A stretch of DNA of 64,000 nt from assembly GCA_001782045.1 (NCBI GenBank), contig MFNK01000009.1, positions 7,516 through 71,515 of the forward strand, written 5' to 3'. Both the position numbers and the translations under genes were made by a program. Of this stretch, positions 50,277 through 57,579 are shown one piece after another (position 1 is the first letter of the stretch; each line of letters opens with the position of its first letter). The notes under the pieces are model-generated. The model saw nothing but the letters and a program-made list of their open reading frames with translations, made no database searches and was not told the DNA's origin. Source of the stretch: Candidatus Levybacteria bacterium RIFCSPHIGHO2_01_FULL_36_15b. GTDB lineage: Bacteria > Patescibacteriota > Microgenomatia > Levybacterales > UBA12049.

Positions 50277-52376
50277 ATGGCTGAAGATAGATTAAAAACA
50301 TTAGATAAGGTAAGAAATATTGGCATTATTGCCCATATTGACGCGGGAAAAACAACAACCACAGAAAGAATTCTTTTTTACACCGGAAAAACCTACAAAA
50401 TTGGAGATATCGACGAGGGAAATACCCAAATGGACTGGATGGAACAGGAAAAAGAAAGAGGAATTACCATAGTTTCCGCTGCAACAACAGCTTTTTGGAA
50501 AGATTACAGAATAAATATTATTGATACTCCCGGACACGTTGATTTTACTGCAGAAGTAGAGAGATCTTTAAGGGTTTTGGATGGCGGAATTACAGTTTTG
50601 GATGCAGAAGAAGGAGTTCAATCCCAATCAGAAACCGTTTGGAGACAGGCTGATAAGTATAAAGTGCCAAGGCTATGTTTTGTGAATAAAATGGATAAAT
50701 TAGGAGCCGATTTTTTAGCAACTATAAAATCGATTGAAGACAGACTTGGTGCTAACCCGCTTATTATGGTTTTGCCAATTGGGGTTGAAAGTAGTTTTAC
50801 AGGAATAGTCCATTTGATGGAACAAAAAGCATACATTTGGAAAAATGACAACCTCGGCGCGGAATTTGAAGTTACAGATGTGCCGGAAGATATGAAGGCT
50901 CAGGTGCAAGAATATAGGCACAAATTAGTTGAAAAAATTGCAGAAACCGATGATGCTCTAACTGATAAATATTTGCACGGACAGGAAATTTCAGACGATG
51001 AATTAAAAGCGGCTTTGCGGCGTGCAGTTATTGCTTATAAATTAGTTCCGATATTTGCAGGAAGTTCGCTGCGTAACAAAGGCGTCCAGCCATTACTTGA
51101 TGCAGTTGTAGATTATCTGCCTTCTCCTTTGGATGTTGGAGAAATTATCGGAATTAATCCCAAAACTGGTGAGGAAGTAAAAAGAACTCCTCAAGCAGAC
51201 CAGCCTTTAGCAGGTCTTGCCTTTAAAATTCAAATTGACCCACACGTCGGAAAACTTACTTATTTTAGAGTTTATAGCGGCAAAGTAGCTGCCGGTTCCT
51301 ATATTTATAACAGTTCCAAAAATGAAAATGAAAGAATTGGAAGAATTTTATTAATGCATGCAAATCACAGAGAAGAAATTAAAGAAGCATATGCAGGAGA
51401 AATTGTTGCATTAGTTGGGCTTAAGGATACTATTACCGGAGACACTTTATCAGATGAAAAAGAACCAATAGTTCTGGAAAAAATTTCCTTCCCCGAGCCT
51501 GTTATATCACTTGCAATTGAGCCAAAAACAAAAGCAGATCAGGAAAAATTAGGCCTTGCTCTAAAAAGATTGTCAGAGGAAGATCCGACTTTTTCAATTA
51601 AAACAAATCATGAAACAGGGCAGACTATAATTTCCGGAATGGGAGAGCTGCAGCTTGAAGTTATGGTAGACAGAATGAAGCGGGAATTCGGAGTTTTGGC
51701 AAATGTCGGAGCGCCCCAAGTAGCATATAAAGAAACAATAAAGCAAACTGCAGAGGGAGAAGGAAAGTATATAAGGCAATCCGGAGGAAGAGGACAATAC
51801 GGCCATTGTTTCTTACGGGTTGAACCAAAACCAAGAGGCGAAGGGTACGAGTTTATAAATGCAATAAAAGGAGGAGCAATTCCTTCTGAATTTATAATTT
51901 CAATCCAAAAAGGTGTAAAAGAAACTATGGAAAACGGAATTTTGTTAGGATATCCGCTTGTTGATATGAATGTAACTGTTTATGATGGAAGTTTCCACGA
52001 GGTAGATTCATCCGACGTCGCATTTAAAATTGCAGCTTCACAAGCACTTCAAGCTGCTACACGAAAAGCACAGCTTTCGCTTTTAGAGCCTATTATGAAG
52101 GTTGAAGTAACAACGCCGAGCGAGTTTATGGGAGATGTAATTGGAGATTTGTCATCTAAAAGAGGTCAAATATTAGGAACAGAAGAAAAGGGAAAAGCGA
52201 CAATTATTAACGCTATGGTACCGCTCGCCGAGCTTTCAAAATATGAAACGACTCTTCGATCTATGTCTCAGGGAAGAGCCCACTCATATCTTGAGCCAAG
52301 CCATTACGAAGAAGTACCCAAAAATATAGTTGAAGCAATGCTTGCCAAATCCACATTCACCGGAAGAGTTGAATAG
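50277..52376 (+). CDS. fusA: elongation factor G
   Basis: G domain [20 protein letters not shown]; domains II-V. 699 aa. Confidence 0.95.
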
Positions 52377-53160
52377 GTAAAGAGGGATAATTTCCGCGTC
52401 TCCAAAAACTGCTCGTAAAGTATTTTTTAAGTTTATCCAGGACAGGATTAGAATGAGAAGGTTCTTCTTCAATCGTAAGTTGAGTAAAACTTGATGGTCG
52501 AATCCACGGCCAAATTTGAATTTGACCTTCTCTTTGTGCAATAACTGTTTCCTCTGGTGTCATTCCTTGTGCTTGCCATACTAATCTTTCCAGTTGAGGA
52601 TGCCAACTTTCCCATAAAATTTGATCTTTTGTTTTTTCTTTTAGATCTTGTTCACCACCATTTATTAGCATTTTATTATGTCTCGTAAGATAACTTGAGA
52701 GTTTTAATTCTTTTTCAGCAAGAGGTAGGCTGTTCCATCCATCTAATGCGGCCTTTTTAACCCAAGAACCATTTATTTGTCCATCCTGTTCTTCTTGTTT
52801 AGCTATCTCTTCGCTTAGCATTCTATTTCTAATTTTCTGTTTGCCGTGTTTCAATTGTAGACTGCTCGATTTTACCTCACCTTCAGCTTCGCTTAAAGGA
52901 AAGCCTTCAACGAACTTTATTATAAAATCACTACCTTTTGCATATCGTTCTTTCAGAATTACTTCTGCAACAATATCTGTTTGGGATGCTATTATCTTTT
53001 GTGTTCTTATTTCTGTTATATCTCCTCTTTCGTTCCAGAGATCATGAAGAAAAGCTCCATTATCTTTTTGCTGTTCTTTAATTTTTCTTCTCGTGAGACG
53101 CACAGGGATCTCAAAATGAGGCGCGGATATTTGATCTAATTCGGATGGTGCAATTCCCAT
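52357..53160 (-). CDS. hypothetical protein (Q/E/W/R-rich), antisense-oriented insertion between fusA and tuf
   Basis: 267 aa, no recognised domain. 3' end overlaps the fusA stop by 20 nt (convergent). Confidence 0.45.
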
Positions 53161-53206: not shown

Positions 53207-53785
53207 TTGTTTTGGTATACTAAATATGTGGTAAAAATAAAATCCTTCAGGTATAAAAATCTTCTTGGGGCTTTTTTGGGAATTCTTATCGCGCTTCTTC
53301 TGTCTCGCTTTGAGCCTTTTCACTTATTTCTTCTAAACTTACATGAATTAGGTTACTTAGGTGCCTTTATTGCCGGAGCGCTTTTTGTTTCTACTTTCAC
53401 GGTTGCAACAGGGGCTGTAATACTTCTTGTTTTAGCTGAAAGTCTTTCGCCCGTAGAGTTGGCCCTAATAGGTGGTTTAGGCTCGGTTCTTGGAGATTTT
53501 TTTATTTTCAAGTTTATCAAAAACTCGCTCTCGATTGAAATTACTGAAATTTATAATCACTTTGGGGGTAACCATCTTTCAAAAATCCTACACACAAAAT
53601 ATTTTAGTTGGACTTTGCCGGTAATTGGCGCGATTATTATCGCTTCTCCATTTCCCGATGAATTAGGAGTAAGTTTACTAGGGATATCCAGAATGAAGAC
53701 GTATCAATTCTTAATTCTCGCATTTATTTTAGATTTTTTAGGCATATTTCTCATAGTAAGTGCGTCAGCTTTAATAAAACCTTAA
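53207..53785 (+). CDS. hypothetical polytopic membrane protein
   Basis: ~192 aa, 5-6 TM helices. Start ambiguous (TTG 53207 or GTG 53228). Confidence 0.4.
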   Translation: MFWYTKYVVKIKSFRYKNLLGAFLGILIALLLSRFEPFHLFLLNLHELGYLGAFIAGALFVSTFTVATGAVILLVLAESLSPVELALIGGLGSVLGDFFIFKFIKNSLSIEITEIYNHFGGNHLSKILHTKYFSWTLPVIGAIIIASPFPDELGVSLLGISRMKTYQFLILAFILDFLGIFLIVSASALIKP

Positions 53786-53858: not shown

Positions 53859-55040
53859 ATGGCAGATAAATTCGAGAGAACAAAACCACATGTAAATATA
53901 GGAACCATCGGTCACGTAGACCATGGTAAGACAACGCTAACCGCAGCTATTGCAACAGTACTGTCTAAAAGCGGTAAGGCAACAGCAAAAAAGTACGAAG
54001 ATATTGATAACGCTCCGGAAGAAAAAGCAAGAGGAGTCACAATTAATATTTCCCATATTGAATACGAAACAGACAAAAGACACTATGCACACATTGACGC
54101 ACCAGGACATGCAGATTACATTAAGAACATGATCACAGGAGCTGCCCAAATGGACGGCTCAATCTTAGTTGTTTCTGCCCCGGACGGCCCCATGCCACAA
54201 ACAAGAGAACACATACTCCTCGCTCGACAAGTAGGAGTTCCTGCAATTGTCGTTTTCTTAAACAAAACAGATATGGTTCAGGATGCAGAACTTTTGGACT
54301 TGGTAGAAATGGAAGTAAGAGAACTCTTAACCAAATATCAATATCCTGGCAATGACGTGCCTATTATTCGTGGGTCAGCGCTTAAAGCTTTGGAAGGCGA
54401 CGCAGAAGCAGAAAAGCAAATACTGGCCTTAATGGATGCAGTTGATACTTATATTCCAACTCCAACAAGAGATTTAGACAAACCATTCCTTATGCCTGTT
54501 GAAGACGTCTTCTCTATTAAAGGAAGAGGAACAGTTGTTACGGGAAGAGTTGAAAGAGGAAAGGTCAAAGTTAACGAGCCGGTTGAAATAGTCGGAATTA
54601 AAGCTACAAAACAGTCTGTTGTAACCGGAGTAGAAATGTTTAGAAAAATGCTTGATGAAGGACAGGCAGGAGATAATGTTGGACTGCTCTTGCGAGGTGT
54701 TGAAAAAGCAGACGTTGAAAGAGGACAGGTTATTGCAAAGCCAGGCTCGATTACGCCTCACAAAGAATTTGAAGCAGAAGCATATATTCTTACAAAAGAA
54801 GAAGGCGGACGACATACACCGTTCTTTACAGGATACAGACCTCAGTTCTTTATTAGAACAACTGACGTAACAGGAGAAGCAGCGCTGCCAAGCGGTGTAG
54901 AAATGGTTATGCCAGGGGATAATACAAAAATGACAGTAAAACTTATTGCACCAGTTGCAATGGAAGAGGGACTCAGATTCGCAATAAGAGAAGGCGGAAA
55001 AACAGTTGGAGCAGGAGTAATCTCCAAAATAATCTCTTAA
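53859..55040 (+). CDS. tuf: elongation factor Tu
   Basis: [22 protein letters not shown]. 393 aa. Confidence 0.95.
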
Positions 55041-55053
55041 TCCAAAAGTCTGC

Positions 55054-55071
55054 CCTGCCTGCGCAGGCAGG
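55054..55071 (+). repeat. 18-bp perfect GC-rich palindrome CCTGCCTGCGCAGGCAGG just downstream of tuf (terminator-like but without a clean U-tract)
   Basis: Arms 55054-55062 and 55063-55071. Strongly GC-rich in an AT-rich genome. Confidence 0.5.
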
Positions 55072-55101
55072 CTCATTTAGCTCTTTGATTTAAATACACA
55101 T

Positions 55102-55410
55102 ATGCCAAAAGGAAGAATTAGAGTAAAACTCAAAAGTTACGACGCGAGAGTAATAGACTCTACATGTCAGCAAATTTTAGACACGGCAATTAGAACCGGG
55201 GCTAAAGTTGTTGGGCCAATTCCACTTCCCAGCAAAAGATCGGTATATGCGGTAAATAAATCAACTTTTATAGACAAAAACGCACGAGACCACTTTCAAA
55301 TAAAAATCCACAAAAGACTCATAGATATAATCTCACCCACAGAAAAAACAATTGACAGTCTTACGCATTTAGAATTACCTGCTGGAGTGAATATTGAGAT
55401 AAGGATGTAG
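55102..55410 (+). CDS. rpsJ: 30S ribosomal protein S10
   Basis: 102 aa. S10 signature (RIRVKLKSYD..LD.S...I..TA...GAKVVGPIPLP). Confidence 0.9.
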   Translation: MPKGRIRVKLKSYDARVIDSTCQQILDTAIRTGAKVVGPIPLPSKRSVYAVNKSTFIDKNARDHFQIKIHKRLIDIISPTEKTIDSLTHLELPAGVNIEIRM

Positions 55411-55422
55411 TATAATTCGTTT

Positions 55423-55830
55423 ATGGATACACCAGCAAATCCAAATCAACCTCCACAAGATCCCTTTAACTTAGCCCGACAGATATCTACTGATCCCGCA
55501 GTTCCAGACGAGCAGAAATTGGAAATGTTAACGGAAATTGGCAGAGGTGTTGGCGTTGATGTAGATAGAATAAATAGATTGCAACGTGTTCCAATTATAC
55601 AACGTGCGGAAATAATAGCAGGACATATTGCTCGACATGGAGAAACTGTTAGGCAGATTACCGATTTTCAAACGGAAGCAAAAAGTCAATTACGCGAAGC
55701 AGATTCACAGCTGGCTAAATCGACGGCGGAAATAGCAGCTAGACTGGATGAGCTAAGAAGATTCCATGAGCCAAGAATAGCAGAAGCAGACATAGCCGTA
55801 CGCCGTCCCAAAAACACCCCTGAAAAATAA
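55423..55830 (+). CDS. hypothetical protein (alpha-helical; Pro-rich N-terminus PANPNQPPQDP), inserted directly after rpsJ
   Basis: 135 aa. Higher GC and R/Q/D-rich composition unlike neighbours. Preceded by tagTATAAT. Confidence 0.45.
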   Translation: MDTPANPNQPPQDPFNLARQISTDPAVPDEQKLEMLTEIGRGVGVDVDRINRLQRVPIIQRAEIIAGHIARHGETVRQITDFQTEAKSQLREADSQLAKSTAEIAARLDELRRFHEPRIAEADIAVRRPKNTPEK

Positions 55831-55863
55831 CCTGCAGGCGTAAACATCGAAATCAGGATGTAG
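55831..55863 (+). pseudogene. orphan duplicate of the rpsJ 3' end (10 codons + stop, PAGVNIEIRM*), synonymously recoded
   Basis: cct gca ggc gta aac atc gaa atc agg atg tag versus the rpsJ end cct gct gga gtg aat att gag ata agg atg tag (55378-55410). Seven differences, all third-position synonymous. Identical aggatgtag core. Confidence 0.6.
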
Positions 55864-55865
55864 AA

Positions 55866-55893
55866 TTGACTTGTATCTCTTTAATGCTATAAT
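55866..55893 (+). promoter_or_regulatory. candidate sigma-70 promoter TTGACT-N16-TATAAT
   Basis: -35 at 55866-55871, -10 at 55888-55893, upstream of the second inserted ORF. Confidence 0.45.
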
Positions 55894-56006
55894 TTCTATA
55901 TGGAACCTGTTGATAGTCAAGAAATCGCTGCTAATTCTCTAGAGCAAAGCATTATTCTCCAGACCACGTTTTTAAAAGAGAAGAGCTTCAGAACGAATCA
56001 GAAAGC

Positions 56007-56432
56007 TTGTTCTCTAGTTTTCTAGATGTATTTAAGCAAGACCCTGATGTTCTAGAAGCCACAGCAGATTCCTTCTTTGATTATGGTGGGTCTCACGATT
56101 TTATAGAAATACCTAAAAGTAATTCTGAATATGAAATATCTACAGCTGATGATCCATATAATGGGGCTGTATATAGATTAGATATTGTTAGAAGAGAGGG
56201 AGAGGTTGAAGAACATCTAATTCTTAAAAGCGCACCCGAGAGGTTTAGAGGAAGCACCATAGTTATGGAAGGAGTGGGGTTTATATATCAATACCGAAAT
56301 GAGGAGACGCAAGGGTATCGTCCATACTCAAATTCACCAATAGCTTTGGATGCTGCTCGAACTCTTTTAGAAAAAACAAAAAGAGATTTTCAAGATGCAC
56401 CCCAACCAAATCCGGCCAATCCTCAGACTTAA
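56007..56432 (+). CDS. hypothetical protein (TTG start; C-terminus ends in the Pro-rich APQPNPANPQT)
   Basis: 141 aa, no recognised domain. Atypical composition (R/E/Y/G). Weak SD. Confidence 0.4.
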   Translation: MFSSFLDVFKQDPDVLEATADSFFDYGGSHDFIEIPKSNSEYEISTADDPYNGAVYRLDIVRREGEVEEHLILKSAPERFRGSTIVMEGVGFIYQYRNEETQGYRPYSNSPIALDAARTLLEKTKRDFQDAPQPNPANPQT

Positions 56433-56601
56433 ACGCTCCCATTAAGAATCCACAGGTTAAAATTCAAACGCGAAAACCTATCAGCCTCCTCTTGCAATTG
56501 ACCTCATCAATATATATAATTACAAGTACAAAATGGCTAAAACACAGGAGGTGATGTTAGCTACATAGGAGTAAATTCGCTACTTTTTTTGTAAGTAAAA
56601 G

Positions 56602-56630
56602 CGGCTCTATGTGGCCGCCTTTTTGTTGTT
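56602..56630 (+). terminator. terminator/attenuator-like hairpin (GCGGC-n8-GCCGC + T-rich run) 10 nt upstream of the rplC SD
   Basis: Stem 56602-56606 / 56615-56619, then ctttttgttgttt. Preceded by a candidate promoter TTGCAA-N16-TATAAT (56493-56520) and an 11-codon mini-ORF (MAKTQEVMLAT). Confidence 0.4.
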
Positions 56631-56640
56631 TAGGAGAATT

Positions 56641-57579
56641 ATGCAAATTTTATCTTTAGTAGGAAGAAAAGTCAGTCAAAAACAAGGATTTTTGCAGAAC
56701 GGTAAAAGAGTTCCGTTAACTGCAGTAAATGTGATGGGTAACATGGTAACTCAGCTTAAGACAGCCGACAAAGAAGGCTACACTGCAATTCAGCTAGGTA
56801 TGGATATTAAGAAAAAACCAGGCAAAAGAGACCTGAATAGAGCAAAACAAGCGGGGCTAGAAAAAGCACCCCGCTTTTTTACAGAAATAAGAGTGGATGA
56901 TCTTGAAGGTGCAACCCTAGGCGCAGAATTAAAATTTGAGGAAGTTTTCGTTCCCGGAGATATTGTTGACGTAACAGGAACTTCAAAAGGAAAAGGATTT
57001 GCAGGAGGAGTAAAAAGACACGGATTCCACGGAGGACCTAGAACCCATGGACAATCAGACAGGGAAAGAGCGCCCGGCTCAATTGGTCAAACAACAACAC
57101 CAGGAAGAGTTTATAAAGGTAAAAAAATGGCAGGAAGAATGGGAACAGATACGGTAACTGTTAAAAATTTAGAAATTATAGAAGTAACTGCAGACGGAGT
57201 TTTACTAATAAAAGGATTAGTTCCCGGACATTTAAACGGATATGTAACAATTAAAAAAGTTGGAGAAAATAAAAAATTTGAACCGTTATATAAGGAAGAA
57301 GTAAAAGAACCAATTTCAGAAAGCACCAGTGAAAGTTCAGAAAATCAGACAAGCGGAACCGACCTGTCGCATTCTTCGGATGACGCTCAGGCTGTTCAAC
57401 CTGAACAACAAAACCTAGAGTCACCTTCGCTAAATAACAGCTCGGCAACTGACTCTGAAGATATTAAAGTTAATACTGAGCCGGCTGTCAGTTCACCTCA
57501 GAATGAACAGGTCGATACCACTCCAAAGAAAAATAAAGAAGAAATTAAAGAGGAGGTAGCTGAAGATGCCAAGAGCTAA
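56641..57579 (+). CDS. rplC: 50S ribosomal protein L3 with ~100-aa Ser/Glu-rich C-terminal extension
   Basis: ATG 56641 after SD aggaga (the ORF track's 56611 start is over-extended). L3 core then a low-complexity acidic tail. Confidence 0.9.
   Translation: MQILSLVGRKVSQKQGFLQNGKRVPLTAVNVMGNMVTQLKTADKEGYTAIQLGMDIKKKPGKRDLNRAKQAGLEKAPRFFTEIRVDDLEGATLGAELKFEEVFVPGDIVDVTGTSKGKGFAGGVKRHGFHGGPRTHGQSDRERAPGSIGQTTTPGRVYKGKKMAGRMGTDTVTVKNLEIIEVTADGVLLIKGLVPGHLNGYVTIKKVGENKKFEPLYKEEVKEPISESTSESSENQTSGTDLSHSSDDAQAVQPEQQNLESPSLNNSSATDSEDIKVNTEPAVSSPQNEQVDTTPKKNKEEIKEEVAEDAKS

What the first reader, a model, noticed from the sequence alone, without database searches (positions are those of the whole stretch)
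55423..56432. Two compositionally foreign cargo genes with mirrored Pro/Asn/Gln-rich termini, inserted between rpsJ and rplC
ORF A (55423-55830) and ORF B (56007-56432) are visibly more GC-rich than the surrounding Lys/Ile/Asn-rich, low-GC coding sequence. Their amino-acid composition is R/Q/D/P-rich.

Each has its own sigma-70-like promoter. tagTATAAT sits in front of A, and TTGACT-N16-TATAAT at 55866-55893 sits in front of B. B starts on TTG with a weak SD.

The N-terminus of A (MDTPANPNQPPQDP) and the C-terminus of B (APQPNPANPQT) carry the same unusual PANP/NPQ-type motif. That points to a common origin or to shared low-complexity linkers.

Neither protein matches a family I recognise. A is predicted to be all-alpha. 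B is mixed (YRLDIVRREGEVEEHLILKSAPERFRGSTIVMEGVGFIYQYRNEETQGYRPY).

Sitting between S10 and L3, they would be co-transcribed with, or interfere with, ribosomal protein expression. A two-gene cargo of this size is compatible with a toxin-antitoxin, immunity or ribosome-associated function.
Basis: partly seen in the sequence, partly recalled or inferred. Interest (0 to 1): 0.65.

Follow-up and report, generated by a model that had tools for sequence, protein, structure and literature searches.

The report
Swapped-in orphan genes after rpsJ
Two small genes of unknown function lie between ribosomal protein genes S10 and L3 of a groundwater Levybacterium, at a junction that varies between related species; one was imported from a related lineage by recombination inside the S10 gene, and they are not a foreign two-gene module.

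Summary

**Composition.** It is native. GC3 is 0.27 for A and 0.23 for B, against 0.19-0.31 for neighbouring genes, and codon-usage scores match the ribosomal genes.

**ORF A.**
- It is a real gene under purifying selection (dN/dS 0.12-0.23).
- AlphaFold2 models it confidently as all-helical.
- It belongs to a tiny uncharacterised family: 8 hits among 1.8 billion representatives.
- It follows rpsJ in four Levybacteria lineages but is absent from the window's closest relatives.
- It is 79% identical to the L001-clade copy, although flanking L3 and L4 are only 54-56% identical.
- The last ~60-100 nt of rpsJ are L001-like.
- A 33-nt copy of the resident rpsJ end (55831-55863) lies right after ORF A. 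It differs from the functional end only at 7 synonymous sites and matches a close relative's real end at 30/33.
- I conclude that A arrived by recombination anchored in rpsJ.

**ORF B.** It is a separate, strain-variable orphan. It is 5'-frameshifted relative to a leaderless ATG, and its only polymorphisms are nonsynonymous.

**Pairing.** A and B never co-occur elsewhere, so they are not a toxin-antitoxin pair.

**rplC.** It has its own promoter, an 11-codon leader ORF and a terminator.

**The site.** The rpsJ-rplC gap is expanded in 41 of 73 related species.

The parts
55102..55410 (+). rpsJ (ribosomal protein S10), a mosaic gene. The 5' part resembles the closest relatives. The last ~60-100 nt resemble the L001 clade, which is the donor type.
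   Evidence: of 27 informative sites, 14 close-relative-type and 6 donor-type lie before nt 250; 0 and 7 lie after. Fisher p = 0.0019; nt 244-309 are 86% identical to L001 but 61-68% to L010-L016, while nt 1-243 are 85% identical to L012/L016 and 80% to L001.
55381..55413 (+). The functional rpsJ 3' end (PAGVNIEIRM, stop). It is donor-type and runs straight into ORF A's -10 box.
   Evidence: 28/33 identical to the real L001 end, but only 22-24/33 to the ends of the closest relatives L010-L013. The junction ATGTAG|TATAAT-N6-ATG is also found in L001 (copy 2) and L092/L095.
55411..55416 (+). TATAAT -10 box of ORF A, 6 nt before its ATG. This is a leaderless-type start and has no good -35 element.
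   Evidence: The layout is conserved in four lineages. TATAAT-N6-7-ATG precedes at least 8 long ORFs in this window.
55423..55830 (+). ORF A, 135 aa. It has a small N-terminal helical head with the motif DPFxLAxQISxDPxIPDEQKL, followed by one ~70-residue helix. The family is uncharacterised and the gene was horizontally acquired.
   Evidence: dN/dS is 0.12-0.23. AlphaFold2 pLDDT is 86.6. The profile search found 8 hits in 1.8e9 representatives. It is 79% identical to the L001 copy while L3 is 54% and L4 56%.
55831..55863 (+). Displaced copy of the resident rpsJ 3' end (PAGVNIEIRM, stop). It is in frame immediately after ORF A's stop codon and marks the recombination.
   Evidence: repeat D1. 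All 7 differences from the functional end are synonymous third-position changes. It is 30/33 identical to the real rpsJ end of close relative L012 and 28/33 to L011. nhmmer E = 1.3e-5.
55866..55893 (+). Promoter-like site TTGACT-N16-(TG)cTATAAT at the start of the B cassette.
   Evidence: 11 of 12 positions with a TG extension.
55900..56025 (+). 41-codon ORF starting at an ATG 6 nt after the -10 box, in a different frame from B. It is probably the original 5' end of the B gene, now out of frame.
   Evidence: The coding-potential signal moves from this frame to B's frame around 55935-55975. A T5A4 run lies at about 55968-55977.
56007..56432 (+). ORF B, 141 aa from a TTG start; the frame is open from 55935. 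It is an orphan found only in this population.
   Evidence: The only hit in 5.8e9 proteins is itself. It has no similarity to the gap ORFs of 80 relatives. Codon usage is native. AlphaFold2 pLDDT is 39.8. Variant L101 carries 6 SNPs, all inside B and all nonsynonymous. Variant L100 diverges exactly at 55864.
56492..56520 (+). Promoter-like site TTGCAA-N17-TATAAT belonging to the rplC operon.
   Evidence: It is conserved as TTGCAT-N17-TATAAT in 17 distinct related sequences.
56533..56568 (+). 11-codon leader ORF (MAKTQEVMLAT, stop) containing the Shine-Dalgarno-like sequence CAGGAGGTGAT.
   Evidence: It is always 11 codons with the pattern M-x4-E-V-x2-A-T-stop. L031 carries an in-frame 36-nt insertion.
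56601..56630 (+). Intrinsic terminator GCGGC-TCTATGTG-GCCGC plus a T-run, just upstream of rplC (ATG 56641). Its loop and 3' arm are complementary to the end of the leader ORF.
   Evidence: The stem pairs in 100% of cells with one covarying pair. The alternative pairing holds in 98.4% of cells.

Best explanation
ORF A and ORF B are two independent single-gene cassettes. They sit in a variable slot between two transcription units: tuf-rpsJ upstream and the rplC operon downstream.

**ORF A**
- It encodes a real, selected, soluble helical protein. The long helix makes it probably oligomeric, which is an inference. Its family is tiny and uncharacterised.
- It was imported into this lineage from a Levybacterium of the L001/L007 clade.
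- The left crossover was homologous and fell inside rpsJ. The incoming DNA therefore replaced the last ~60-100 nt of rpsJ and brought A's -10 box, which abuts the rpsJ stop codon.
- The right junction fell at the resident rpsJ end. That end was pushed downstream of ORF A as a 33-nt copy.
- This matches either homology-facilitated illegitimate recombination or a double crossover that used the rpsJ-end repeat already flanking the donor cassette. The DNA most plausibly arrived by natural transformation.

**ORF B**
- It is a separate orphan cassette that begins exactly after the displaced rpsJ end.
- It has its own strong promoter and a leaderless ATG that is now out of frame with the main ORF.
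- It varies between strains and shows no sign of purifying selection. It is either a young gene or a decaying one.

**Expression**
- Neither gene is needed for, or likely to disturb, rplC expression. rplC has its own promoter and a leader-ORF/terminator element.

**Shown versus inferred**
- Shown: the mosaic rpsJ, the displaced end, the identity excess of A, native composition, lack of A-B co-occurrence, and the variable slot.
- Inferred: the recombination pathway, transformation as the route, leaderless expression, and any biochemical role of A or B.
For: **ORF A was acquired horizontally**
- A is 79% identical between the window and L001 and 70% between the window and L007. For the same pairs L3 is 54%, L4 52-56% and L2 71%. 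In the vertically related pair L001-L007, A is 74% against L3 68% and L4 78%.
- In 15 control pairs drawn from other gap-gene families, the gap gene never exceeds L3 by more than 10 points.
- dS of A between the window and L001 is 0.57, against 1.36 for tuf and 1.14 for rpsJ.
- The closest relatives by ribosomal proteins (L010-L013, L016) lack A.

**The recombination scar**
- rpsJ is a mosaic (Fisher p = 0.0019).
- The displaced end at 55831-55863 differs from the functional end at 7 of 33 sites. All 7 are synonymous third-position changes.
- The displaced end matches the real end of L012 at 30/33. The functional end matches L012 at only 24/33 but matches L001 at 28/33.
- The L001 clade carries near-identical 27-30 nt rpsJ-end repeats on both sides of TATAAT-ORF A, with mosaic variants between samples.
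- Similar displaced rpsJ ends occur independently in L029 and L078.

**ORF A is a real gene**
- dN/dS is 0.12-0.23.
- pLDDT is 86.6.

**A and B are not a pair**

**The slot is variable**
- The gap is 330-3443 nt in 41 of 73 species. It holds mostly unrelated genes.
- None of the families seen is a recombinase: the 25 most frequent families across 59 gap ORFs, and the 10 ORFs scanned individually.

**rplC has its own promoter and leader**

**The arrangement is not an assembly artefact**
- It is 100% identical in at least 7 independent assemblies.

**Transformation is plausible**
- Natural competence with homologous recombination has been demonstrated in Patescibacteria, and com genes are conserved across the radiation (PMC10633639).
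- The definition of homology-facilitated illegitimate recombination follows PMC3240628.
Against: - The rpsJ breakpoint rests on a 309-nt gene. A few donor-type sites lie further 5' (nt 139-210), so the boundary is fuzzy. The segment-based test gives only p = 0.01-0.02.
- The actual donor is not in the databases. dS to L001 is still 0.57.
- The junction between A's stop codon and the start of the displaced end is shared with L001. The displaced copy may therefore be partly donor-derived rather than purely resident.
- No transcription data exist. Promoters and leaderless starts are consensus-level predictions, and A's promoter lacks a -35 element.
- B may predate A at this site or may have arrived later. 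The order of events is not resolved.
- The L100 variant is known only from the last 124 nt of one contig.
- The functions of both proteins remain unknown.
Confidence: 0.68

Rival explanations
1. A and B form one functional two-gene cargo, such as a toxin-antitoxin, immunity or ribosome-associated pair, inserted together.
For: The genes are adjacent, small, on the same strand and without family matches. Both have Pro/Asn/Gln-rich termini that are composition outliers.
Against: - A occurs without B in the L001-L006/L094, L007 and L092/L095 lineages.
- B occurs nowhere else.
- A 176-nt spacer, the displaced rpsJ end and a separate promoter lie between them.
- The L100 variant keeps A but diverges exactly where the B cassette begins.
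- There are no PADLOC or Pfam toxin or antitoxin hits.
- The order of residues in the two termini is not similar.
Confidence: 0.04
2. The cassette is the remnant of an integrase-driven integrative element that targets the 3' end of rpsJ. The two rpsJ-end copies would be attL and attR, and the integrase was lost later.
For: - Direct repeats of the target gene's 3' end flank the insert, and the gene is restored by an element-borne end. This is the classic layout of elements that integrate into the 3' ends of tRNA or protein genes (my own knowledge).
- All displaced ends start at about the same position, some 32 nt before the stop.
- One remote A homologue (P0009) sits next to a tyrosine recombinase.
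Against: - No recombinase was found in the window insert, among the 25 most frequent Pfam families of 59 gap ORFs, or in the 10 gap ORFs scanned individually, which include the largest.
- The inserts are only ~0.3-0.6 kb.
- The two copies differ at 7 of 33 sites, with only 9 nt identical at the 3' end.
- The donor-type tract extends into rpsJ beyond the repeat. That fits homologous exchange better than a fixed att core.
- There are no phage or plasmid matches.
Confidence: 0.12
3. ORF A is an old, vertically inherited gene of this clade that was lost repeatedly. The rpsJ-end copies come from local tandem duplications.
For: A sits at the same position in four lineages. The 49%-identical L095 copy diverges about as much as L3 does, at 52%. 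Most other gap-gene families look vertically inherited.
Against: - A shows a 25-point identity excess over L3 between the window and L001.
- Its dS is lower than that of the flanking core genes.
- The closest relatives lack A.
- The two copies of the rpsJ end differ at 7 of 10 third positions, and only synonymously. That requires separate evolution under selection in two genomes, not a local duplication.
Confidence: 0.08
4. ORF B, with the 41-codon ORF upstream, is not a functional gene. It would be a frameshifted pseudogene or a chance or recently arisen ORF.
For: - The leaderless ATG at 55900 is out of frame with B, and the coding signal switches frame.
- B has a TTG start with a poor Shine-Dalgarno sequence.
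- It has no homologues.
- pLDDT is 39.8.
- The only polymorphisms are 6 nucleotide changes giving 5 amino-acid changes and no synonymous change.
Against: The frame stays open for 167 codons in a ~38% GC sequence; my estimate of the chance probability is about 1e-5. Codon usage is native (0.32 per codon). The frameshift is identical in at least 7 assemblies, so it is not a sequencing error. Translation could restart at the TTG, which lies 18 nt before the upstream ORF's stop.
Confidence: 0.4

Closest known systems
Horizontal-transfer hotspots bracketed by conserved core genes, where cassettes are exchanged by homologous recombination in the flanks. Examples are capsule and O-antigen loci, and the hotspots described by Oliveira, Touchon, Cury and Rocha in 2017 (my own knowledge).
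   Same: - The flanks are constant: the rpsJ end on one side and the conserved rplC promoter and leader on the other.
- The content differs among related species.
- There is no dedicated recombinase.
- The flanking core gene is a mosaic.
   Different: The slot lies inside the otherwise very conserved str/S10 ribosomal gene cluster. The cassettes are single small genes. In some lineages a 30-nt piece of the essential flank gene is duplicated and travels with the cassette.
Homology-facilitated illegitimate recombination during natural transformation (defined in PMC3240628; first described by de Vries and Wackernagel in 2002, my own knowledge).
   Same: There is one homologous anchor (rpsJ) carrying a donor-type tract that is contiguous with the insert. 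The other junction lies at a short stretch and leaves a duplicated resident sequence.
   Different: The right junction may itself be homologous, between the donor's rpsJ-end repeat and the resident rpsJ end. That would make the event an ordinary double crossover. No experimental evidence exists here.
Integrative elements that insert into the 3' end of a conserved gene and carry a replacement end, such as phage or ICE integration into tRNA or tmRNA genes (my own knowledge).
   Same: A direct repeat of the gene's 3' end flanks the insert, and the gene stays intact.
   Different: There is no integrase. The inserts are tiny. The repeats differ at 21% of positions, and the donor tract extends beyond the repeat.
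Type II toxin-antitoxin modules.
   Same: Two small adjacent genes on the same strand.
   Different: The pair does not co-occur elsewhere. There are no family matches, the promoters are separate, and the spacer is 176 nt.

Membership tests
Type II toxin-antitoxin module | The two genes co-occur as an adjacent pair wherever either is found. | tested here: not met
   A occurs without B in three other lineages. B occurs only in this population.
Type II toxin-antitoxin module | Recognisable toxin or antitoxin domains. | tested here: not met
   No Pfam, PADLOC, NCBIfam or PHROGs match below E = 0.008. No fold match for A.
Type II toxin-antitoxin module | A tightly coupled bicistronic operon with overlapping or closely spaced genes and one promoter. 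| tested here: not met
   A 176-nt gap holds the displaced rpsJ end and a separate 11/12-match promoter. No transcript data are available.
Core-gene-flanked horizontal-transfer hotspot | The same flanking core genes hold different gene content in related genomes. | tested here: met
   Of 73 species, 41 have an expanded gap of 330-3443 nt. The ORFs are mostly singleton families, including His_Phos, deformylase, FtsJ, NUDIX, Fic and PMT.
Core-gene-flanked horizontal-transfer hotspot | Evidence of recombination in the flanks. | tested here: met
   rpsJ is a mosaic. A displaced resident end is present. This was shown for ORF A only; other cassette families look vertically inherited.
Homology-facilitated illegitimate recombination | A donor-type tract in the anchor gene that is contiguous with the insert. 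| tested here: met
   rpsJ nt 244-309 are 86% identical to L001 and 61-68% to the close relatives.
Homology-facilitated illegitimate recombination | An illegitimate, microhomology-only junction at the other end. | tested here: inconclusive
   The right junction lies at the resident rpsJ end. The donor clade already carries an rpsJ-end repeat there, so the junction may be homologous instead.
Homology-facilitated illegitimate recombination | DNA uptake by natural transformation in the recipient. | not tested
   Competence genes were not searched for in this genome. Competence has been shown for Saccharibacteria, and com genes are reported as conserved across the radiation (PMC10633639).
Integrase-mediated integrative element | A site-specific recombinase gene inside the insert. 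| tested here: not met
   None was found in the window insert, among the 25 most frequent Pfam families of 59 gap ORFs (14 rarer families were not displayed), or in the 10 gap ORFs scanned individually.
Integrase-mediated integrative element | An identical att core at both ends. | tested here: inconclusive
   Only AGGATGTAG (9 nt) and CCTGC are identical between the copies in the window. The L002-L004 copies share 27 identical nt.
Integron gene cassette | An adjacent intI integrase and attC imperfect inverted repeats at the cassette ends. | tested here: not met
   No integrase was found. The boundary repeats are direct copies of a coding sequence, not attC-like palindromes.

The most novel reading that the evidence does not exclude
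The unit [rpsJ 3' end]-TATAAT-ORF-[rpsJ 3' end] may be a recombinase-free mobile gene cassette. It would carry a piece of an essential, highly conserved ribosomal protein gene as a portable homology arm. That arm would let it, and later unrelated cassettes, drop into the rpsJ end of any related genome after DNA uptake. The displaced ends would then remain as landing pads.

If so, the rpsJ|rplC junction of Levybacteria would work as an integron-like variable array without an integrase. ORF A's tight linkage to rpsJ in four lineages might also reflect a ribosome- or S10/NusE-related role.
Probability: 0.2. Interest if true: 0.6.

Novelty: new member of a known kind. Interest (0 to 1): 0.38.

Why it matters
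- The locus preserves an unusually legible record of how a gene entered the most conserved gene cluster of a genome-reduced, uncultivated bacterium. The record consists of a mosaic essential gene plus a displaced copy of its 3' end.
- This supports recombination after DNA uptake as a route of gene gain in the Candidate Phyla Radiation.
- It shows that the S10 gene cluster, widely used as a vertical phylogenetic marker and a binning anchor, has a variable slot in Levybacteria and a recombinant rpsJ in this lineage.
- The proteins themselves remain of unknown function, so the immediate biological payoff is modest.

Tried and rejected
- **Family searches.** Pfam, PHROGs, PADLOC and NCBIfam scans of A, B and remote A homologues gave nothing significant.
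- **Solved structures.** Profile searches of the PDB with the whole A family and with its N-terminal head gave only coiled-coil noise, plus a non-significant hit to the Sleeping Beauty helix-turn-helix (E = 0.12).
- **ORF B structure.** The model was too poor to search (pLDDT 39.8).
- **Phage and plasmid collections.** tblastn of A and B against both, and a scan of viral contigs with the A family, found nothing.
- **Rfam.** No match for the region, for relatives' leaders, or for the L078 insert.
- **Similarity of B to neighbours' genes.** I looked for similarity between B and the gap ORFs of 80 relatives and found none.
- **Integrase or transposase hotspot.** Rejected, because the gap genes are ordinary assorted functions.
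- **Assembly chimera.** Rejected, because the arrangement is identical in at least 7 assemblies.
- **Stop-codon read-through.** I considered read-through fusing A to the in-frame rpsJ tail. The tail is decaying in L001 variants (QVGVNIEIKIQ) and absent in L007 and L095, so I rejected it.
Full report
**1. What is there**

The window comes from a Candidatus Levybacteria genome of the Candidate Phyla Radiation. ORF A is 100% identical to a hypothetical protein of bin RIFCSPLOWO2_01_FULL_36.

The local gene order is tuf (53859-55040), rpsJ (55102-55410), ORF A (55423-55830), ORF B (56007-56432), rplC, rplD, rplW, rplB. The true rplC start is ATG 56641, not the listed GTG at 56611.

**2. Composition is native**

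- A has GC 0.434 and B 0.383. tuf has 0.419 and rplB 0.405, and the window averages about 0.36.
- GC3 is 0.265 for A and 0.225 for B. Neighbouring genes range from 0.19 to 0.31.
- A codon-usage log-odds score trained on 34 long ORFs of the window gives 0.34 for A and 0.32 for B. tuf and the ribosomal protein genes score 0.23-0.46, and out-of-frame readings score about -0.5 to -0.9.
- A's slightly higher GC reflects its Ala/Arg/Asp/Glu/Pro-rich, Lys-poor composition.

**3. The 'mirrored termini'**

- A's N-terminus and B's C-terminus are 64% and 67% Pro+Asn+Gln, against a mean of 14%. Only 3 of 116 termini in the window reach that level.
- The best local alignment between the two termini is matched or beaten by 65% of composition-preserving shuffles.
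- The L007 homologue of A lacks the motif. Remote A homologues have their own Pro/Thr/Ser-rich N-termini.
- The shared feature is low-complexity composition. It is not evidence of common origin.

**4. ORF A is a real gene of a tiny family**

- It has homologues at 79% identity (L001-L006 and L094), 70% (L007) and 49% (L092, L095, L096). All lie directly after rpsJ and before rplC, except that the L007 contig starts 73 nt upstream of the ORF, so rpsJ is not seen there.
- dN/dS is 0.12-0.23.
- AlphaFold2 gives pLDDT 86.6. The model has three short N-terminal helices and one helix spanning residues 58-127.
- A profile search of 1.8 billion representative proteins found only 8 hits, one of them spurious. 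The true hits are proteins of 94-138 aa (the 94-aa one is cut by a contig end) that share DP[FY]xLAxQISxDPxIPDEQKL.
- Remote members lie elsewhere in their genomes: one next to a tyrosine recombinase and an RNase H, one after dsbB, and one among small ORFs.
- No sequence family, solved structure or viral fold matches.

**5. ORF A was imported by recombination in rpsJ**

*The repeat.* A 33-41 nt direct repeat flanks ORF A. The rpsJ 3' end (PAGVNIEIRM, stop) recurs at 55831-55863, immediately after A's stop codon and in frame with it (repeat D1). The two copies differ at 7 of 33 sites, and all 7 are synonymous third-position changes. Neutral decay of a local duplicate would do this with probability of roughly 3e-4 (my estimate). 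Both copies must therefore have diverged under selection for the S10 C-terminus, which means in two different genomes.

*Which copy is resident.*
- The downstream copy matches the real rpsJ end of the window's closest relatives: 30/33 to L012 and 28/33 to L011.
- The functional end matches those relatives at only 22-24/33, but matches L001 at 28/33.

*The mosaic gene.*
- rpsJ nt 1-243 are 85% identical to L012 and L016, and 80% to L001.
- rpsJ nt 244-309 are 86% identical to L001, and 61-68% to the close relatives.
- At informative sites, 14 close-type and 6 donor-type lie before nt 250, and 0 and 7 lie after (p = 0.0019).

*Identity excess.*
- A is 79% identical between the window and L001, while L3, L4 and L2 are 54%, 56% and 71%.
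- In the vertically related pair L001-L007, A is 74% against 68%, 78% and 81%.
- Fifteen control pairs from other gap-gene families never exceed L3 by more than 10 points.
- dS of A is 0.57, against 1.36 for tuf.
- The closest relatives (L010-L013, L016) lack A.

*The cassette boundary.*
- The junction ATGTAG|TATAAT-N6-ATG, which is the rpsJ stop codon followed by A's -10 box, is shared by the window, L001 copy 2 and L092/L095. A's promoter region therefore overlaps the rpsJ end, which explains why the two travel together.
- In the L001 clade, TATAAT-ORF A is bracketed by near-identical 27-30 nt rpsJ-end repeats. The variants of these repeats are reassorted between samples.
- Displaced rpsJ ends also follow unrelated inserts in L029 and L078. 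In L078 all the differences are again synonymous.

*Not an artefact.* The window arrangement is 100% identical in at least 7 independent assemblies. The window lineage and the L001-type lineage also co-occur in one sample, ERZ28563803.

*Mechanism (inferred).* DNA was taken up and then recombined, either by homology-facilitated illegitimate recombination or by a double crossover using the rpsJ-end repeat. Competence with homologous recombination has been shown in Patescibacteria (PMC10633639). Homology-facilitated illegitimate recombination is defined in PMC3240628.

**6. ORF B is a separate orphan cassette**

- B has no homologue other than itself among 5.8 billion proteins. It has no similarity to the gap ORFs of 80 relatives and no match in phages or plasmids.
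- The cassette begins right after the displaced rpsJ end, with TTGACT-N16-TGcTATAAT (11 of 12 positions) and an ATG 6 nt later at 55900. That ATG opens only a 41-codon frame. B is in another frame, open from 55935, with a TTG start at 56007.
- The codon-usage signal moves from the first frame to B's frame around 55935-55975, near a T5A4 run.
- B's AlphaFold2 model is poor (pLDDT 39.8).
- One population variant (L101) carries 6 SNPs in 1345 nt. All lie inside B and all are nonsynonymous, giving P50H, S83R, F92L, Y94C and Q95H.
- Another variant (L100, a 232-kb contig) is identical up to 55863 and then continues with unrelated sequence that begins TGATATAAT-N6-ATG.
- B is therefore strain-variable and shows no purifying selection. 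It is either young or decaying.

**7. The site is a variable slot, and rplC is insulated from it**

- Among 73 related species with both genes resolved, the rpsJ-rplC gap is at most 330 nt in 32 and 330-3443 nt in 41.
- The inserted ORFs are mostly singletons. They include a histidine phosphatase, peptide deformylase, FtsJ, a racemase, NUDIX, a glycosyltransferase, Fic and a cation efflux protein. No recombinase was found among the families seen.
- Directly upstream of rplC, relatives with and without inserts share three elements:
  - a promoter (TTGCAT-N17-TATAAT);
  - an 11-codon ORF with the pattern M-x4-E-V-x2-A-T-stop;
  - an intrinsic terminator.
- The only terminator-like site on the + strand between 55000 and 56700 is this one.
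- The cassettes therefore lie between two transcription units, which makes interference with rplC expression unlikely. This is an inference, because no transcript data exist.

**8. Verdict**

These are accessory insertions, and A is horizontally acquired. They are not compositionally foreign, not of common origin, and not a two-gene module.

The case is a new member of a known kind: accessory orphan genes in a hotspot flanked by core genes. Its unusual feature is a clear recombination scar inside rpsJ. What either protein does remains unknown.

Noticed in passing
window 56492-56640; also L001 5450-5590, L007 550-715, L011-L013, L016, L017, L019, L021, L031, L034, L038, L045, L095: A conserved leader precedes rplC. 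It has a promoter, an 11-codon ORF (M-x4-E-V-x2-A-T-stop) containing the perfect Shine-Dalgarno-like sequence GGAGGTGAT, and an intrinsic terminator.

The terminator's invariant loop and 3' arm (CUAUGUGGC/U) are complementary to the end of the leader ORF (GCUACAUAG). The terminator stem covaries (G-C, A-U, G-U), and L031 keeps the reading frame despite a 36-nt insertion.

This may be a translation-sensing attenuator of the rplC operon. There is no Rfam match.
   Followed up: partly
L100 2942-3065 (window equivalent: after 55863): A strain variant on a 232-kb contig is identical to the window up to the last base of the displaced rpsJ end. It then continues with unrelated sequence starting TGATATAAT-N6-ATG, and the contig ends 124 nt later. 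This suggests cassette swapping exactly at the boundary of the displaced end.
   Followed up: partly
L101 (window 56155-56291): A population variant has 6 SNPs in 1345 nt. All lie inside ORF B and all are nonsynonymous. Three of the five changed residues cluster at residues 92-95.
   Followed up: yes
L078 4310-4580: In a distant Patescibacteria single-cell genome, a ~270-nt GC-rich, hairpin-rich insert lies between the real rpsJ end and a displaced copy that differs from it only synonymously. It has no Rfam match and may be an unknown structured RNA. The contig also contains an inverted duplicate, which is probably an amplification chimera.
   Followed up: partly
L001 4904-4958: A 55-nt GC-rich spacer with palindromic arms (CGCCTG...CAGGCG) lies between the real rpsJ stop codon and the second rpsJ-end copy. 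A similar GC-rich palindrome lies between tuf and rpsJ in the window at about 55052-55073.
   Followed up: no
window ~57300-57576: Ribosomal protein uL3 carries a C-terminal extension of roughly 90-100 residues that is acidic and rich in Ser, Thr and Gln. The protein is 312 aa here, against 271 aa in L001 and L095 and 239 aa in L007.
   Followed up: no
window 52357-53160 (-) and 53207-53785 (+): The fusA-tuf gap also holds lineage-specific ORFs: one of 267 aa with no Pfam hit on record, and one of 192 aa that looks hydrophobic, also without a Pfam hit on record. L001 has a different 99-aa ORF there. The str cluster therefore has a second variable slot.
   Followed up: no
window 27606, 39147, 51639, 55423 (+); 38587, 38175, 27499, 4206 (-): At least eight long ORFs start 6-8 nt after an exact TATAAT. 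Leaderless or near-leaderless transcripts therefore appear common in this genome.
   Followed up: partly
L090 695-2045: A remote ORF A homologue (33% identical) lies immediately downstream of a tyrosine recombinase gene and upstream of an RNase H gene. A DUF87/TrwB-like ATPase gene lies nearby.
   Followed up: no
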